From positions 1,792,001 through 1,856,000 of the forward strand of contig CP147778.1 in the NCBI GenBank assembly GCA_037305845.1: a stretch of 64,000 nt of DNA, in the 5' to 3' direction. The notes beneath the pieces are model-generated. The model was not told the origin of the DNA, did no database searches, and worked only from the letters and a program-made list of their open reading frames with translations. A program made the position numbers and the translations under genes. Shown piece after piece: positions 6,283 through 61,884 of this stretch (its first letter is position 1; every line of letters begins with the position of its first letter). Source of the DNA: Candidatus Freyarchaeum deiterrae (lineage in GTDB: Archaea; Asgardarchaeota; Jordiarchaeia; Jordiarchaeales; Jordiarchaeaceae).

Positions 6283-6696
6283 TTATTTCAGAGGAACATA
6301 CATGCTGCTTTTTGTTGCACCTATTCCGGGGCTCCCGTGCATCACACGTTTACAAGTTGGGGAGTATTCACCCAAATAGTGACCTATCATCTCCGGTTCA
6401 ACTTTTATTTCAATAAAAGTTTTCCCATTATGAATCGCAACATCTAATCCCACCATCTCAGGCAAGATTACCATATCTCGATTATGAGTACGCACCATCA
6501 CCTTTTTACCCTTTCTTTGTGCTCTCTTTGCTCGCCTAAGTTTCTCGAGCAATTTTTTTTGACGGGGAGGGAGGCCTCTTAATAAGCTTCTTCTCTGACG
6601 CGAAGGTAGAAGTTTTATAAACTCATCCATCGGCATCCTCTGAAGCTCTTCCAAAGAAGACCCGCGATATGTGAACTTTTTAACCATAATCTTCAA
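6283..6696 (-). CDS. rps19: 30S ribosomal protein uS19 (S19P)
   Basis: [35 protein letters not shown] and [15 protein letters not shown]. Confidence 0.97.
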
Positions 6697-6793: not shown

Positions 6794-6811
6794 AGAAAAA
6801 AATTTATATTA
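6794..6811 (+). promoter_or_regulatory. BRE/TATA promoter of tRNA-Pro
   Basis: GAAAAAAATTTATATT about 25-30 nt upstream of the tRNA 5' end. Confidence 0.55.
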
Positions 6812-6835: not shown

Positions 6836-7053
6836 GGGGTTGTAGTCTAGAGGATTAAGGTTCTCTTAGACCGGAAAAATTGGTATGAGCCCTCGAGAAC
6901 CCCCTCGATGGGTACAATTCCGCTTAAGGCTTTTTAAGCGGCGAGAGTCCTGCCTGGGGCGGAGAACTCAGAGTTTTCCACTGAACGCAGGCGGTCCCGA
7001 GTTCAAGATACCATCTCAAATCGGTTGGTTTGGAAATCTCGGCAACCCCACCA
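6836..7053 (+). tRNA. tRNA-Pro(GGG) with five putative introns; CCA encoded
   Basis: Removing 6851-6878, 6889-6917, 6919-6947, 6960-6985 and 7008-7036 gives a 77-nt cloverleaf. Acceptor GGGGTTG/CAACCCC, anticodon stem CCTGC/GCAGG with loop CTGGGGC, T arm CCGAG-TTCAAGT-CTCGG. Confidence 0.88.
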
Positions 7054-7065
7054 TTTTTTCTCTTT

Positions 7066-8247
7066 TTATGAGGAATTAGAACCAGCATCTACAGTGTAAT
7101 CTCTGGAAAAACTTGGCTGTCGATTCCTTTTTTTCCAAGCCATAACCGCAGAAATTATCGATAGAGCAGAGACGGGGGTAAGAATGGCGATCTTACTCGT
7201 AAGCGAATCTCCTTCACTTAAAAATGGCAATAATGTTAATGCTGAAAAGCCTGATGTCTCTTTTTCAACCGTATAATAAGTACTTGAATCATTGATACAC
7301 TGGGTTCCATTGTAAAAAACAAGTACATTTAACGCATATTTGCCAGATATTAAGGGCGCGTTAATAGTTCCTGTCCAATTATTGCCCGCTGCATTCTCTA
7401 ATGGAAAACTATCATTAATAAACACTAAAACTAGGGGGTCACTATAATTAAGTTCTATATTCACAAGAATTGGCGTATTTGGCTCAACTCTGGTTGCATT
7501 CAAAGCAATCGATACAATTTCTATGGAGGGGGAAATAATAGACACATTAAATTCACTTTCAGTTGAACCATATAATTGAGTACCTCCAAATTCTAGATAA
7601 AAGCTAAGCTGTCCAATAGCAGTACCAGGTGGAATCATCCAAGATAATTTACAATGGCCAAATGCATCCGTAGTTGATTCAGTAAGATTATTGTTTTGGT
7701 AATCGCACAATTGTACCTGCTGATTGGAAATCGAATTGTAAATGTTATCCTTTAGGTCTGCTTCAACTACCAAATACTCTCCAGAATAAGCTGACATCTG
7801 GTAGGTGAGATTCACAAAAGTTGTTCTGGCTTTAATAAGAAGATCAGTATACACAGGTATAGCATCGGGCCTACTAGGACATGAAGCTTTGATGGTCGTT
7901 AATCCTAGGGGGCAATTCTGTGCTATACCCCAATTTAGCACCGCGTACCCACTAGAATTAGTATATTCACCACCAATTGACAGATTGTTTGTCAAATCGT
8001 CAAAATAGGTTATTACTCCTGTAAGAGGGTCTCCGCTCGAATTCATAATTCTCACGGTTACTGTTACATATTCGCCCCTATAACAGATCAAGGGTTGGCT
8101 CTTGCTCAATGAACCAGTTGAAAAATTGGATGGGTAACAGATGTTATTCTGGTATCGTGTAAATATAAAAACTAGCATTAAGACTGAAATTATTAGCATG
8201 ATTCGACCTTTTTTGCCGAAGATTATTTTTCTATAATGAAGTTTCAT
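7066..8247 (-). CDS. Membrane-anchored cell-surface protein with Ig-like beta-sandwich domains
   Basis: N-terminal hydrophobic signal or anchor, two similar T(N/D)xxGxxxLxWxI units, many N-x-S/T sequons, C-terminal TM followed by KKRNR. Confidence 0.6.
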   Translation of the reverse strand: MKLHYRKIIFGKKGRIMLIISVLMLVFIFTRYQNNICYPSNFSTGSLSKSQPLICYRGEYVTVTVRIMNSSGDPLTGVITYFDDLTNNLSIGGEYTNSSGYAVLNWGIAQNCPLGLTTIKASCPSRPDAIPVYTDLLIKARTTFVNLTYQMSAYSGEYLVVEADLKDNIYNSISNQQVQLCDYQNNNLTESTTDAFGHCKLSWMIPPGTAIGQLSFYLEFGGTQLYGSTESEFNVSIISPSIEIVSIALNATRVEPNTPILVNIELNYSDPLVLVFINDSFPLENAAGNNWTGTINAPLISGKYALNVLVFYNGTQCINDSSTYYTVEKETSGFSALTLLPFLSEGDSLTSKIAILTPVSALSIISAVMAWKKRNRQPSFSRDYTVDAGSNSS

Positions 8248-9605: not shown

Positions 9606-11825
9606 TTAGTTAAAATCTTTTAATGATGTTTGCTTATCGGTTGGAAAAATTAAATTCGCATTACCTTCTGTTGTATTATTCAGTTGTTCCTTAATTTTTT
9701 TGGCTAATTCTTTACCTATGGTAGGAATTTTTGATAGCTCTTCAATGTTTACAGAGGCTAAATCCCGAGTGTTCTTCAGGCCAGCATCGTATAATCTTCT
9801 TGCTCTAATTCGCCCTATTCCAACGAGTTTTACAAGGTCTAATAGTTCTTCTTTCACTCCGTAATTTATTCTTGTTCTAATGCGTCGGATATAGGAGAAT
9901 TCCTCCTTAATATTTAATAGCTTTGCAATTTCGTACGTGGAGTAGAGCAACCAATCTGCTGTTTCAACAAACCTAAATATGTCACCTGAACCCACCCCAA
10001 ATTGTGAAATAATCTGATCCTCCGAAGCTTCGCTAATCCATCTATCAAGCAAATAAGTCATCTTCAATTCGGATAAAAACCATTCATACTCCCCTGGATC
10101 ATCCCCTTCATTTGGCGGAATTATACGAAGTTCAAATTTATGTTCATCAGCAAAAAAACTCAATTCCTTGTAATCTTTTCTCCCAAGATAGAGACGCGGC
10201 ATATCAGACGTATGGGAAATTAGATGTAAATAGCCAATATCCGCTGGTTGCTCTACATTTGCCTTTAGACCATCTCTAATTATAACCGCTGACATGGGGT
10301 CAATGTAGAGTTCCGATATTCTTCTACCAAAGGGTGTGGCAACTAAAATATTTTTTTCAGGCTCTATCATCCCCTCTGATACCAAAAAAGTAAGGATACC
10401 ATCCAGAATCATTTCAATAAAATCTGAACCGAACTGATGAGCATAGAAGGTGTTCTCCATAAACGCCATTATACCTTTACGGTTGTTAGCATAATTCGAA
10501 GCAATCGTAGCAAGTATCTGCGTTCTGAGAAAAGACTCTGATGCTAATTTTGATTCAATAATTTCTGGAGCGCCCTTAATGTACCTCTCCATAAGTATAT
10601 TCTCCTCCCCCGCACTCTTGGCTATAAGAACAGACTCTCCCTCAATGTCGTATTTCGGTCTTCCTGCCCTACCAGCCATTTGCTTATACTCTAGAACCGG
10701 AATCAGTCTATACCCAAAATTAGAATCATATCTTCTATAATTTCTAATAATCACTCTTCTAGCAGGAAGGTTAACCCCGGCAGCTAAAGTAGGGGTTGCA
10801 CAAACCACTTTAATCAAATTATTTTTAAAATTCTCCTCAACCACCTTTCTTTGATTATAATTAAGCCCAGCATGATGAAAAGCCACCCCACCTTCAATGC
10901 AAGACGCTAACTGCTTAGAAATTTGTGTAAGTTCTCCACCATGAAGCAGCTCCCGCGCCAGGAGCTTAAGCCTCTTTTTCTCAACATTACTCAGGTAACT
11001 GGATAAAATACTGGAAACGCGGCTCGCAATGGAAACAGCATTTCTTCTTGTAGAATCAAATATTAAAGCCTGCCCTCTGTTCTTTATGGTATCAACCGCT
11101 AAACAAATTGAATATTCCGGATCTATTAAAGGGACACTTTGAGAACTACCATCCAAGTAACTAATAACTCCATTATGAAGCACCCCCTCTTTTAGAATTA
11201 CTGGCCTCCAATCACTTAAGACTAATTCTGCCTCCAACCATTCCGCAAGTTGATTCGCATTGCTTATTGTTGCACTAAGAGCAATAATCTGCGCGGTAGG
11301 ATTTATCTGTCGCAAACGTGCAAGAACCACTTCAAGTGTCGGTCCACGATCAGTGGAATTAATCAGGTGAATTTCATCAGCAATAATTACTGTAATTTTA
11401 GAAATCCAATCCGCGTGATGCCTCAGAAGAGAATCCGCTTTCTCGTTAGTACAGACTAAAATATCATATCTGCCAAGTTCGGAACCCGAAGAATCAAGAT
11501 CTCCTGTAGACAAACCAACTCTTATTCCAAGGCTTTCCCATTTCTTAAATTCTTCAAATTTTTCGCTGGCGAGGGCACGTAAAGGTACAAGATAGATGGC
11601 TTTACCTTTATTTAATATGCTCTTAATCATACATAATTCTGCGATTAGTGTTTTTCCGGAAGCTGTAGGAATAGCCAAAACTAGATTCACGTTATTCAAA
11701 ACACCTGCTCTAACAGCATCCTCCTGGGGAGGATAAAGAGATTTATAGCCCAACTCGACCAAAATTTTTTTAACAGCCTCTGAAATATCTAGATCTTCTA
11801 TAAGCAAAATACAACCCTCAGGCAA
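9606..11825 (-). CDS. hel308: Hel308/Hjm Ski2-like SF2 DNA helicase
   Basis: PTASGKT, DEIH, ALSAT, FHHAGL, TPTLAAGVNLPARRV, QMAGRAGRP and a C-terminal HhH with IGRIRAR. Confidence 0.95.
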   Translation of the reverse strand: MPEGCILLIEDLDISEAVKKILVELGYKSLYPPQEDAVRAGVLNNVNLVLAIPTASGKTLIAELCMIKSILNKGKAIYLVPLRALASEKFEEFKKWESLGIRVGLSTGDLDSSGSELGRYDILVCTNEKADSLLRHHADWISKITVIIADEIHLINSTDRGPTLEVVLARLRQINPTAQIIALSATISNANQLAEWLEAELVLSDWRPVILKEGVLHNGVISYLDGSSQSVPLIDPEYSICLAVDTIKNRGQALIFDSTRRNAVSIASRVSSILSSYLSNVEKKRLKLLARELLHGGELTQISKQLASCIEGGVAFHHAGLNYNQRKVVEENFKNNLIKVVCATPTLAAGVNLPARRVIIRNYRRYDSNFGYRLIPVLEYKQMAGRAGRPKYDIEGESVLIAKSAGEENILMERYIKGAPEIIESKLASESFLRTQILATIASNYANNRKGIMAFMENTFYAHQFGSDFIEMILDGILTFLVSEGMIEPEKNILVATPFGRRISELYIDPMSAVIIRDGLKANVEQPADIGYLHLISHTSDMPRLYLGRKDYKELSFFADEHKFELRIIPPNEGDDPGEYEWFLSELKMTYLLDRWISEASEDQIISQFGVGSGDIFRFVETADWLLYSTYEIAKLLNIKEEFSYIRRIRTRINYGVKEELLDLVKLVGIGRIRARRLYDAGLKNTRDLASVNIEELSKIPTIGKELAKKIKEQLNNTTEGNANLIFPTDKQTSLKDFN

Positions 11826-12119: not shown

Positions 12120-12286
12120 GGGCCCGTAGCTCAGAGGAATAAACTAATACTTCCGAGAAACCTGGTAGAGCGACAGAATTCTGCCAGAAAATCGTCGAAG
12201 CTCATATGTAACGCTGAGAAACCTGTTGGTCCAGGGTTCGAAAGAGCTTTATCAGTAAAGCTCCGAACATCCCTGCGGGCCCACCA
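12120..12286 (+). tRNA. tRNA with CAT anticodon, most likely tRNA-Ile2 (agmatidine), with four BHB introns; CCA encoded
   Basis: Introns 12135-12160 (15/16), 12177-12199 (30/31), 12207-12220 (37/38) and 12243-12269 (59/60) leave a 77-nt cloverleaf. The GGGCCCG/CGGGCCC acceptor with A73 resembles archaeal Ile tRNAs more than Met tRNAs. Confidence 0.9.
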
Positions 12287-12877: not shown

Positions 12878-13165
12878 TTGCAAAACCCGCCACCAAAACC
12901 GGTTGATCCTGCCGGACTTGACCGCTATCGGGCTGAGACTAAGCCATGCAAGTCGTACGTTTCAGGCCACGCTGAAACGTGGCGTACTGCTCAGTAACAC
13001 GTTGTCAATCTGCCCTCAGGACAGGGACAACCTCGGGAAACTGAGGATAATCCCTGATAGGTGACACGGCCTGGAATGGTGTGCCCCCTAAAGGACTCAA
13101 TGGCATGCTCATTGACGTCGCCTGAGGATGAGACTGCGTCTGATTAGGTAGTTGGTGGGGTAGAG

Positions 13166-13255
13166 GTGTAACACCCCAAAAAACCAATACAACAACTAGA
13201 GTGCCCACATCACAAATTGGACATTCAGTAGTATTGGCGGGATGTCCCACTACAA
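13166..13255 (+). other. 90-nt BHB intron in 16S helix 11 (~E. coli 265/266), no ORF
   Basis: Clean BHB: GGTGGG/CCCACC outer helix, GTAG/CTAC central helix, bulges AG|G and AA|G. Splicing restores GGTGGGGTAGAGGCCCACC. Confidence 0.9.
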
Positions 13256-13324
13256 GCCCACCAAGCCGATAATCAGTACGGGCCACGGGAGTGGTAGCCC
13301 GGAGATGGGGACTGAGACAAGGCC

Positions 13325-13355
<31 letters not shown>

Positions 13356-13719
13356 ACTCCGCAATGCACGAAAGTGTGACGGGGCCAGCCCGAGTGCCAA
13401 CTGAAAATGTTGGCTTTTCACCCGCGCAAATAGCTGGTGGAATAAGGGGAGGGCAAGGCTGGTGCCAGCCGCCGCGGTAAAACCAGCTCCTCGAGTAGTC
13501 AAGACGATTATTGGGCCTAAAGCGTCCGTAGCCGGCTTAGTAAGTCTCTGGTCAAATCTAACGGCTCAACCGTTAGGCTGCTAGAGATACTGCTAGACTC
13601 GGAGGCGGGATAGGTCGAGGGTACTCTCAGGGTAGGGGTGAAATCCTATAATCCTGAGGGGACCACCAGTGGCGAAGGCGCTCGACTGGAACGCGCTCGA
13701 CGGTGAGGGACGAAAGCCA

Positions 13720-13774
<55 letters not shown>

Positions 13775-13854
13775 AAGTGTTAGGGCGGCCACGAGCTGCC
13801 CTAGTGCTGGAGGGAAGCCGTTAAGTCCACCGCCTGGGGAGTACGGCCGCAAGG

Positions 13855-13896
<42 letters not shown>

Positions 13897-14317
13897 AAGC
13901 CTGCGGTTTAATTGGACTCAACGCCGGAAATCTTATCGGGAGCGACAGCAGCATGAAGGCCAGGCTGATGACCTTGCCTAACGAGCTGAGAGGAGGTGCA
14001 TGGCCGTCGCCAGTTCGTGCCGTGAGGTGTCCTGTTAAGTCAGGCAACGAACGAGACCCTTGTCCTTAGTTGCCAGCGGGACTTCAAATAGTTGCCGGGC
14101 ACACTAAGGAGACTGCCATCGATAAGATGGAGGAAGGTAAGGGCCACGGCAGGTCAGTATGCCCCGAATCTCCCGAGCCACACGCGGGCTGCAATGGCTA
14201 GGACAATGGGTTCCGACATCGAAAGGTGAAGGTAATCCCCCAAACCTAGTCTCAGTTGGGATCGAGGGCTGTAACCCGCCCTCGTGAACATGGAATCCCT
14301 AGTAATCGCGTGTCATC

Positions 14318-14375
<58 letters not shown>

Positions 14376-14424
14376 CGAGTTTGGATGAAACATAATCCTT
14401 CGGGTTGTGTTAAATCCTGGTTCG

Positions 14425-14494
<70 letters not shown>

Positions 14495-14500
14495 AACCTG

Positions 14501-14613
14501 CGGCTGGATCACCTCCTTCGAAGAAAACGGGCTTATAGTTAGTCCAGCTTGTGCGTATATGGGTTTTTGGGCTTTCTTTTGTTCTATTGTTTTTTTCTTT
14601 AATGGGTTTGTTT
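14501..14613 (+). repeat. R1: native 16S 3' end plus processing strand and trailer (source of the direct repeats)
   Basis: Re-occurs at 41337-41446, 42687-42791 and 44139-44203. Confidence 0.9.
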
Positions 14614-61759: not shown

Positions 61760-61884
61760 CCCGCAGTAACTCAGACTGGCTAGAGTGCCCGGCTGTAGAG
61801 TTGCACTTGTCAGTGTGACTATTCCCAGTAGGCACTCGCACAGACACCGGGACGTCGCAAGTTCAAATCTTGCCTGCGGGACCA
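61760..61884 (+). tRNA. tRNA-Tyr(GTA) with a 47-nt intron at 37/38 (61799-61845); CCA encoded
   Basis: C1-G72 acceptor CCCGCAG/CTGCGGG; BHB CTGT/ACAG with bulges AG|A and AC|A; T arm GCAAG-TTCAAAT-CTTGC. Confidence 0.95.

What the first reader, a model, noticed from the sequence alone, without database searches (positions are those of the whole stretch)
6836..7053. tRNA-Pro(GGG) apparently split by five introns, including a 1-nt micro-exon
Seen: the 218-nt gene reduces to a regular 77-nt tRNA by removing five blocks of 28, 29, 29, 26 and 29 nt at positions 15/16, 24/25, 25/26, 37/38 and 59/60. The 24/25 (GTAT/GTAC) and 59/60 (TTCA/TGGA) junctions give good BHBs; the others are relaxed. Treating blocks 2 and 3 as one intron would leave a G10-G25 mismatch, whereas the micro-exon T6918 restores G10-U25. 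Established: multi-intron archaeal tRNAs are known from Thermoproteales, with up to three introns as far as I recall. Inference: ordered, sequential splicing by a permissive EndA; standard tRNA finders probably miss this gene.
Basis: partly seen in the sequence, partly recalled or inferred. Interest (0 to 1): 0.85.

Follow-up and report, generated by a model that had tools for sequence, protein, structure and literature searches.

The report
Five-intron tRNA with one-base exon
The only proline tRNA (anticodon GGG) gene found in the Asgard archaeon Ca. Freyarchaeum deiterrae is cut by five short enzyme-spliced introns, two of them separated by one base that must end up in the finished tRNA, so they very probably come out one after the other; heavily interrupted tRNAs are already published for this group, but I found no description of a one-base tRNA exon.

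Summary
Confirmed. Removing 6851-78, 6889-6917, 6919-47, 6960-85 and 7008-36 (15/16, 24/25, 25/26, 37/38, 59/60) gives a 77-nt tRNA-Pro(GGG); exon 3 is T6918 alone. The genome is Ca. Freyarchaeum deiterrae. Its paper lists this gene with three introns (tRNAscan-SE), missing the D-arm pair. Nine Jordarchaeia orthologs settle the micro-exon. One has only the 24/25 intron and reads U25-U26 directly. In four, the base after T is A, which fixes the exon at 1 nt. The 25/26 splice helix pairs 29/32 once 24/25 is removed, but 18/32 before, so the order is probably 24/25 then 25/26. A single 58-nt intron would give G25 or A25 and costs 14-19 kcal/mol. The genome encodes an (αβ)2 EndA with the broad-specificity loop, and RtcB. 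Already known: four introns in this genome's tRNAs, up to five per gene in Asgard (bioRxiv 2026), and ordered 'nested' splicing in crenarchaea. Apparently undescribed: the one-nucleotide exon, which the preprint's alignment rule merges away. This scan already found the same exon in a four-intron Jordarchaeum ortholog. No RNA evidence.

The parts
6794..6810 (+). Archaeal promoter-like element: A-rich BRE-like run, then TATA-like TTTATATT (6803-6810)
   Evidence: Sequence; the same element lies upstream of the three other Freyarchaeum orthologs. Function inferred.
6836..6850 (+). Exon 1, tRNA positions 1-15
6851..6878 (+). Intron 1, 15/16, 28 nt, relaxed BHB (3/4, G10 unpaired)
   Evidence: called by tRNAscan-SE in PMC11291895 Supp Data 4; present in 9/9 orthologs
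6879..6888 (+). Exon 2, positions 16-24 (including 17a)
6889..6917 (+). Intron 2, 24/25, 29 nt, canonical BHB (G19-U22 with GTAC, 4/4)
   Evidence: 4/4 in 9/9 orthologs; not in the published annotation
6918..6918 (+). Exon 3: one nucleotide, U25, partner of G10
   Evidence: Invariant T in 9/9 orthologs; followed by A in four Jordarchaeaceae; G006 lacks intron 3 and reads TT
6919..6947 (+). Intron 3, 25/26, 29 nt, 9-bp inner hairpin; its central helix pairs with U20-G23, which reach the right register only after intron 2 is removed
   Evidence: present in 8/9 orthologs
6948..6959 (+). Exon 4, positions 26-37; anticodon GGG at 6956-6958
6960..6985 (+). Intron 4, canonical position 37/38, 26 nt, relaxed (2/4; keeps the C32:G(-3) pair)
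   Evidence: called by tRNAscan-SE; in Freyarchaeum orthologs only
6986..7007 (+). Exon 5, positions 38-59
7008..7036 (+). Intron 5, 59/60, 29 nt, central helix TTCA/TGGA 4/4 (TGAA in G002)
   Evidence: called by tRNAscan-SE
7037..7053 (+). Exon 6, positions 60-76 with encoded CCA
7054..7067 (+). T-rich tract after CCA, probable archaeal terminator
   Evidence: sequence; function inferred

Best explanation
This is the working, apparently single-copy tRNA-Pro(GGG) gene of Ca. Freyarchaeum deiterrae. It is transcribed as one precursor with five bulge-helix-bulge (BHB) introns, cut by the (αβ)2 EndA with the L1/CSL loop and joined by RtcB. The 24/25 intron forms a full BHB in the primary transcript and is cut first. 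Ligation joins A24 to U25. That builds the 5' bulge (A24, U25, first intron base) and brings U20-G23 into register with the 3' end of the 25/26 intron. EndA then cuts again one phosphodiester from the fresh junction, and U25, a one-nucleotide exon, is kept. Shown: sequence, orthologs, motif geometry, enzyme genes. Inferred: transcription, cleavage, order.
For: Clean 77-nt cloverleaf. Paralogs Pro(CGG) and Pro(TGG) carry the uninterrupted U25-U26 D-arm. G006 has intron 2 without intron 3 and reads TT. In G007-G010 the base after T is A, so the exon is 1 nt. Intron 3 helix pairs 3,3,4,4,4,3,4,4 of 4 after intron 2 removal versus 2,1,3,2,3,2,3,2 before; apart from one T, its varying positions opposite U20 and U22 switch only between A and G. 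Forming the intron 3 BHB costs less after intron 2 removal in 8/8 genomes, by 0.6-5.7 kcal/mol. An unguided lowest-cost route removed intron 2 then 3 in G000, G001, G002, G004 and G009. EndA alpha has Y149/H157/K188 and the loop lysine K66, aligned to K44 of the closest solved EndA, recalled as A. pernix; the second paralog lacks the catalytic His. RtcB is present. No second Pro(GGG) locus was found.
Against: No RNA data. Relaxed BHB rules alone do not discriminate (about 95 candidate sites). The greedy folding route never reached the correct mature tRNA in any genome, and took intron 3 first in G010. Introns 1 and 4 have mismatched central helices. The orthologs are related, so 8/8 is not eight independent tests. 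Nearest-neighbour energies model BHB junctions poorly.
Confidence: 0.75

Rival explanations
1. Same five introns and the same 1-nt exon, but no required order: the permissive EndA can also cut intron 3 first, using intron 2's 3' end (TACA or TGCA) as a stand-in helix.
For: Intron 2's 3' end resembles exon 19-24, giving 2-3 of 4 pairs plus a 3-4 bp outer helix. The folding penalty is small in G002 and G010, and greedy folding took intron 3 first in G010. G006 keeps intron 2 without intron 3.
Against: Pairing is 18/32 versus 29/32. The invariant C of the intron 3 helix faces A in the precursor but G23 after splicing. This conformer must break intron 2's own 4/4 helix.
Confidence: 0.15
2. Blocks 2 and 3 leave as one 58-nt intron (6890-6947), so there are four introns, no micro-exon, and G at position 25.
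For: A formal BHB can be drawn with the same central helix and a 2-bp inner helix. An alignment census with the 2026 preprint's settings calls one 58-nt insertion.
Against: The product has G25 (A25 in G002 and G007) facing G10, whereas G006 and both Pro paralogs have U25. The conformer costs 13.9-18.9 kcal/mol against 2.7-7.4 for intron 2 alone. Block 2 is a complete stand-alone intron in G006.
Confidence: 0.05
3. Five introns, but in Freyarchaeum the micro-exon is 2-4 nt, because intron 3 can slide right by up to 3 nt without changing the product.
For: Junction ambiguity in this genome.
Against: Registers shifted by +1 or +2 lose the inner helix (0 bp versus 9) and pair 1-2 of 4; +3 was not scored. 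In Jordarchaeaceae the next base is A, so no slide is possible.
Confidence: 0.02
4. The gene is a decaying pseudogene, or is not fully processed, and CCC/CCU codons are read by another tRNA.
For: Low published Infernal score (40.6), but that was scored with the D-arm block left in. Two relaxed junctions.
Against: Exons and splice helices are conserved across two families while intron interiors diverge. Promoter-like element conserved. Locus syntenic with hel308 in both families. No other GGG locus found.
Confidence: 0.03

Closest known systems
Heavily interrupted tRNA genes of Freyarchaeia/Atabeyarchaeia (Valentin-Alvarado et al. 2024, PMC11291895)
   Same: Same genome and same gene: listed as Pro GGG 1798836-1799053. 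In that paper 92-95% of tRNA genes carry introns, up to four per gene in its table.
   Different: The table gives this gene three introns, also after R2DT curation. The 24/25 and 25/26 introns and the 1-nt exon are absent from it.
Census of Asgard tRNA intervening sequences (Goswami, Ghosh, Sinha, bioRxiv 10.64898/2026.10.13.758758)
   Same: Reports up to five insertions per gene, D-arm insertions missed by tRNAscan-SE, and (αβ)2 EndA in these families.
   Different: Its main text has no mention of nested or adjacent introns, micro-exons or splicing order. Its alignment settings merge introns 2 and 3 into one 58-nt block here even against the true mature sequence, and it groups positions within 3 nt. 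Its supplementary tables were not available.
'Nested' multi-intron pre-tRNAs of crenarchaea (Sugahara 2007; Tocchini-Valentini 2009; read only as cited in PMC3978253 and PMC3728597)
   Same: The last intron forms its BHB only after the others are removed.
   Different: Maximum of three introns (PMC4033280). I found no 1-nt exon described, but could not open the primary papers.
ARMAN-2 tRNA-Pro(GGG) with introns at 53/54 and 59/60 (PMC3239211)
   Same: Two close introns in one arm of a tRNA-Pro(GGG).
   Different: The exon between them is 6 nt, not 1 nt; epsilon2-type EndA.
Single-base exon of placozoan mitochondrial cox1 (PMC5436844; title and abstract start only)
   Same: A one-nucleotide exon exists in nature.
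   Different: An mRNA exon in an animal mitochondrion. From my own knowledge its introns are of self-splicing type, not protein-cut BHB introns in a tRNA.

Membership tests
tRNA-Pro(GGG) | Cloverleaf with intact stems, U33, GGG anticodon, A73 and CCA after splicing | tested here: met
   ARAGORN on the spliced product
tRNA-Pro(GGG) | Expressed, matured and charged with proline | not testable with these tools
   No RNA data available
Archaeal BHB (EndA-type) tRNA introns | Canonical BHB: 4-bp central helix, two 3-nt bulges, at least one flanking helix | tested here: met
   Introns 2 and 5: 4/4; intron 3: 4/4 in 5 of 8 orthologs after intron 2 removal
Archaeal BHB (EndA-type) tRNA introns | BHB-like motif at the remaining junctions | tested here: inconclusive
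   Introns 1 and 3 are 3/4 and intron 4 is 2/4 in this genome. Better than shuffles, but relaxed rules match many sites.
Archaeal BHB (EndA-type) tRNA introns | Short, ORF-less, hairpin intron; not a group I or II ribozyme | tested here: met
   26-29 nt hairpins; no Rfam intron match
Archaeal BHB (EndA-type) tRNA introns | Host encodes a broad-specificity EndA and an RNA ligase | tested here: met
   Two PF01974 genes; alpha has the Tyr/His/Lys triad and the CSL lysine; RtcB present
Archaeal BHB (EndA-type) tRNA introns | Cleavage by EndA at the predicted phosphates | not testable with these tools
   Needs an in vitro assay
Nested (order-dependent) multi-intron pre-tRNAs | One intron's BHB forms only, or much better, after another intron is removed | tested here: met
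   29/32 versus 18/32 helix pairs; lower folding cost in 8/8. Computational only.
Nested (order-dependent) multi-intron pre-tRNAs | Order seen in intermediates or in vitro | not testable with these tools
   No RNA data available
Split or permuted tRNAs | Pieces at separate loci or in swapped order | tested here: not met
   All six exons are colinear within 218 nt

The most novel reading that the evidence does not exclude
A tRNA with the smallest possible exon. U25 lies between two EndA introns and is recovered by a required cut-ligate-refold-cut cycle, in which RtcB's junction becomes part of the next EndA bulge. The arrangement has been kept across two Jordarchaeia families. One lineage (G006) lost the 25/26 intron precisely. 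A cDNA copy of the mature tRNA could hardly do that alone, since it offers only one base of 5' homology before intron 2, so this points to DNA-level loss or a minor alternative route. Published censuses cannot see such exons, so intron counts in Asgard tRNAs may be underestimates.
Probability: 0.6. Interest if true: 0.55.

Novelty: new variant of a known kind. Interest (0 to 1): 0.45.

Why it matters
It shows how tightly BHB introns can be packed: an intron can sit inside another intron's splice bulge. It gives a natural minimal substrate for testing whether EndA cleavage and RtcB ligation must alternate, and G006 is a ready control without intron 3. It corrects the published annotation of this gene from three introns to five. 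It also exposes a blind spot in both tRNAscan-SE and the new alignment census, which matters for counts of intron gain in Asgard archaea. It is not a new splicing chemistry, and five per gene equals, rather than beats, the reported maximum.

Tried and rejected
ARAGORN and Rfam on the window: gene not found. ARAGORN at relaxed score over the genome: 664 mostly spurious calls. Metagenome scan with a 14-mer: too short, chance hits, no orthologs pursued. Phylum-wide gapped pattern: matched nearly every genome as the control pattern did, so it says nothing about the micro-exon outside Jordarchaeia. Exhaustive relaxed-BHB splicing: hit the state cap before depth five and ranked an implausible product first. 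Greedy lowest-energy splicing: found the early steps but never the final tRNA. Generic profile scan with introns: located the locus but parsed it wrongly. The 12-nt word shared between the 24/25-25/26 junction and the tRNA-Ala(TGC) intron as a sign of intron copying: not significant, p about 0.07. The sigma-70 promoter scan does not apply to archaea. Primary papers Sugahara 2007 and Tocchini-Valentini 2009 and 2011 were not held. Literature searches for 1-nt tRNA exons found none. That is absence in this library only.

Full report
Observation. The 218-nt stretch 6836-7053 starts and ends like a tRNA, with a 7-bp acceptor stem and encoded CCA. Joining 6836-6850, 6879-6888, 6918, 6948-6959, 6986-7007 and 7037-7053 gives 77 nt that ARAGORN calls tRNA-Pro(GGG) with full stems and G10-U25. 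Shuffling each intron gives an equally good junction with probability 8e-5 to 3e-3. Among 75 candidate relaxed BHB sites in the precursor, the five rank 1, 3, 6, 8 and 9 by folding cost (7e-6 if ranks were random, though the introns were first recognised partly by their hairpins). A TATA-like box at 6803-6810, conserved in relatives, and a T-tract after CCA flank the gene.

Source and prior annotation. The genome is one contig of 3,576,204 bp. That equals the complete Freyarchaeia genome of Valentin-Alvarado et al. 2024 (PMC11291895), whose Supplementary Data 4 lists Pro GGG at 1798836-1799053, this gene exactly. It gives three introns (our 1, 4 and 5) and a score of 40.6, leaving a 135-nt 'mature' sequence. 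So tRNAscan-SE finds the gene but misses the D-arm pair; ARAGORN and Rfam miss it altogether. The same table has four-intron tRNAs (Arg TCT, Ile2, Leu GAG). A 2026 preprint reports up to five insertions per gene in these families.

Is the D-arm block one intron or two? Nine orthologs were recovered: four Freyarchaeum and five Jordarchaeaceae. The gene lies near hel308 in both families. All nine have the 15/16 and 24/25 introns, the latter with a 4/4 central helix every time. Eight then have T, a second hairpin, and T. G006 has no second hairpin and reads TT straight into the anticodon stem. Block 2 is therefore a stand-alone intron, and the mature tRNA has U25-U26, as do the paralogs Pro(CGG) and Pro(TGG), whose D-arms are uninterrupted there. 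In this genome intron 3 could slide right by up to 3 nt without changing the product, but shifts of 1-2 nt lose the 9-bp inner helix. In four Jordarchaeaceae the base after the T is A, which fixes the exon at one nucleotide. The single-intron rival (6890-6947) can be drawn as a BHB. It leaves G25 (A25 in G002 and G007) opposite G10, and its conformer costs 13.9-18.9 kcal/mol against 2.7-7.4 for intron 2 alone.

How it most likely works. An EndA site needs four helix bases and two bulge bases from the 5' exon. For intron 3 these are U20-A21-U22-G23 and A24-U25, which are contiguous only after intron 2 is cut out and A24 is ligated to U25. In that state the helix pairs 3,3,4,4,4,3,4,4 of 4 in the eight orthologs (29/32). 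In the unspliced precursor it must use intron 2's own 3' end and pairs 18/32. The invariant C faces G23. The positions facing U20 and U22 vary between A and G (one T exception), both of which pair with U. Folding cost is lower after intron 2 removal in all eight. An unguided lowest-cost route removed intron 2 then intron 3 in five of eight, intron 3 first in one. The genome has two EndA paralogs. One carries Tyr149, His157, Lys188 and the loop lysine K66, which aligns with K44 of the top PDB match (3p1z/3ajv, recalled as A. pernix EndA); PMC5829648 ties A. pernix K44 to cleavage of relaxed motifs. That loop is conserved in the ten Jordarchaeia where the gene was found. The other paralog lacks the catalytic His. 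RtcB is present. Shown: anatomy, conservation, geometry, enzyme genes. Inferred: expression, cleavage, and the order 24/25 then 25/26. I have no evidence of an order for the other introns. The 37/38 junction is weak (2/4) but keeps the C32:G(-3) pair, known from eukaryotic pre-tRNAs (own knowledge).

History. On an RpoB tree G006 is sister to G007 (100/98), with G009 outside; both of those, and all Freyarchaeum orthologs found, have intron 3. One precise loss in G006 is the simplest reading. Jordarchaeaceae lack the 37/38 and 59/60 introns and have one at 42/43 instead (position read by hand), so five is the Freyarchaeum state. That intron 3 pairs with exon rather than with intron 2 suggests it is the older of the two, or has been selected in the spliced context (inference).

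Uniqueness. The anticodon-arm 12-mer occurs once in this genome, and profile scans found no second GGG locus. Among the roughly 45 tRNA genes listed or recovered here I saw none with more than four introns by rough inspection. His and Ser(CGA) were not located.

Comparison and novelty. Multi-intron Asgard tRNAs are published, and so is order-dependent 'nested' splicing in crenarchaea. The closest spacing I found in print is a 6-nt exon in ARMAN-2 tRNA-Pro(GGG). I found no 1-nt tRNA exon in the papers searched, though three primary papers could not be opened. With the preprint's alignment settings the two D-arm introns merge into one 58-nt insertion even against the true mature sequence, so that census probably counts this gene as four. 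This scan has already reported the same one-base exon in a four-intron Jordarchaeum ortholog. Those are AI notes, not independent evidence; the orthologs were tested here directly.

Verdict. A real feature and a new variant of a known kind. Five introns equals the reported maximum. The one-base exon and the splicing order it implies are the new part; both are well supported by comparison and untested at the RNA level. Interest 0.45.

Noticed in passing
window 12120-12286 (+): tRNA-Ile2(CAT) with four introns, just upstream of the 16S gene. Already in the published table (score 101.7); missed by ARAGORN and by Rfam at the gathering score.
   Followed up: partly
window 12896-14517 and 44803-47888: 16S and 23S rRNA genes lie about 30 kb apart. 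The 16S alignment has about 93 nt where the model has 3, near model position 245; possibly an rRNA intron.
   Followed up: no
window 61760-61884 (+): tRNA-Tyr(GTA) with one 47-nt anticodon-loop intron.
   Followed up: partly
window 6283-6696 (-): The ribosomal protein uS19-like gene is divergent from the tRNA, 139 bp away; hel308-like helicase at 9606-11825 (-).
   Followed up: partly
G000:C1 1547141-1547326 +, 1547648-1547842 +, 1501690-1501840 -, 1690130-1690305 -, 1790046-1790195 -, 1729308-1729446 +, 1631535-1631720 +: Multi-intron tRNA genes absent from the published table, read by inspection as Ala(GGC), Phe(GAA), Pro(TGG), Ser(GCT), Glu, initiator Met and Leu(CAG). His and Ser(CGA) were not found.
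   Followed up: partly
G000:C1 1326639-1326821 + and 1545581-1545739 -: The published 'Ser AGA' looks like a four-intron Cys(GCA), and the published 'Met CAT' at 1545739 looks like Glu(CTC) (read by eye, not formally tested).
   Followed up: partly
G000:C1, ending at 1889092 +: A diverged second copy of the multi-intron tRNA-Leu(GAG), about 0.6 kb after the listed one; possibly a pseudogene.
   Followed up: no
window 6917-6928 and G000:C1 near 1725411 (-): A 12-nt word at the intron 2/exon 3/intron 3 junction also starts the D-arm intron of tRNA-Ala(TGC); the 10 intronic bases are not significant against shuffles (p about 0.07).
   Followed up: yes
L147-L151: Jordarchaeaceae Pro(GGG) genes carry an intron at about 42/43 in the anticodon stem instead of 37/38 and 59/60.
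   Followed up: partly
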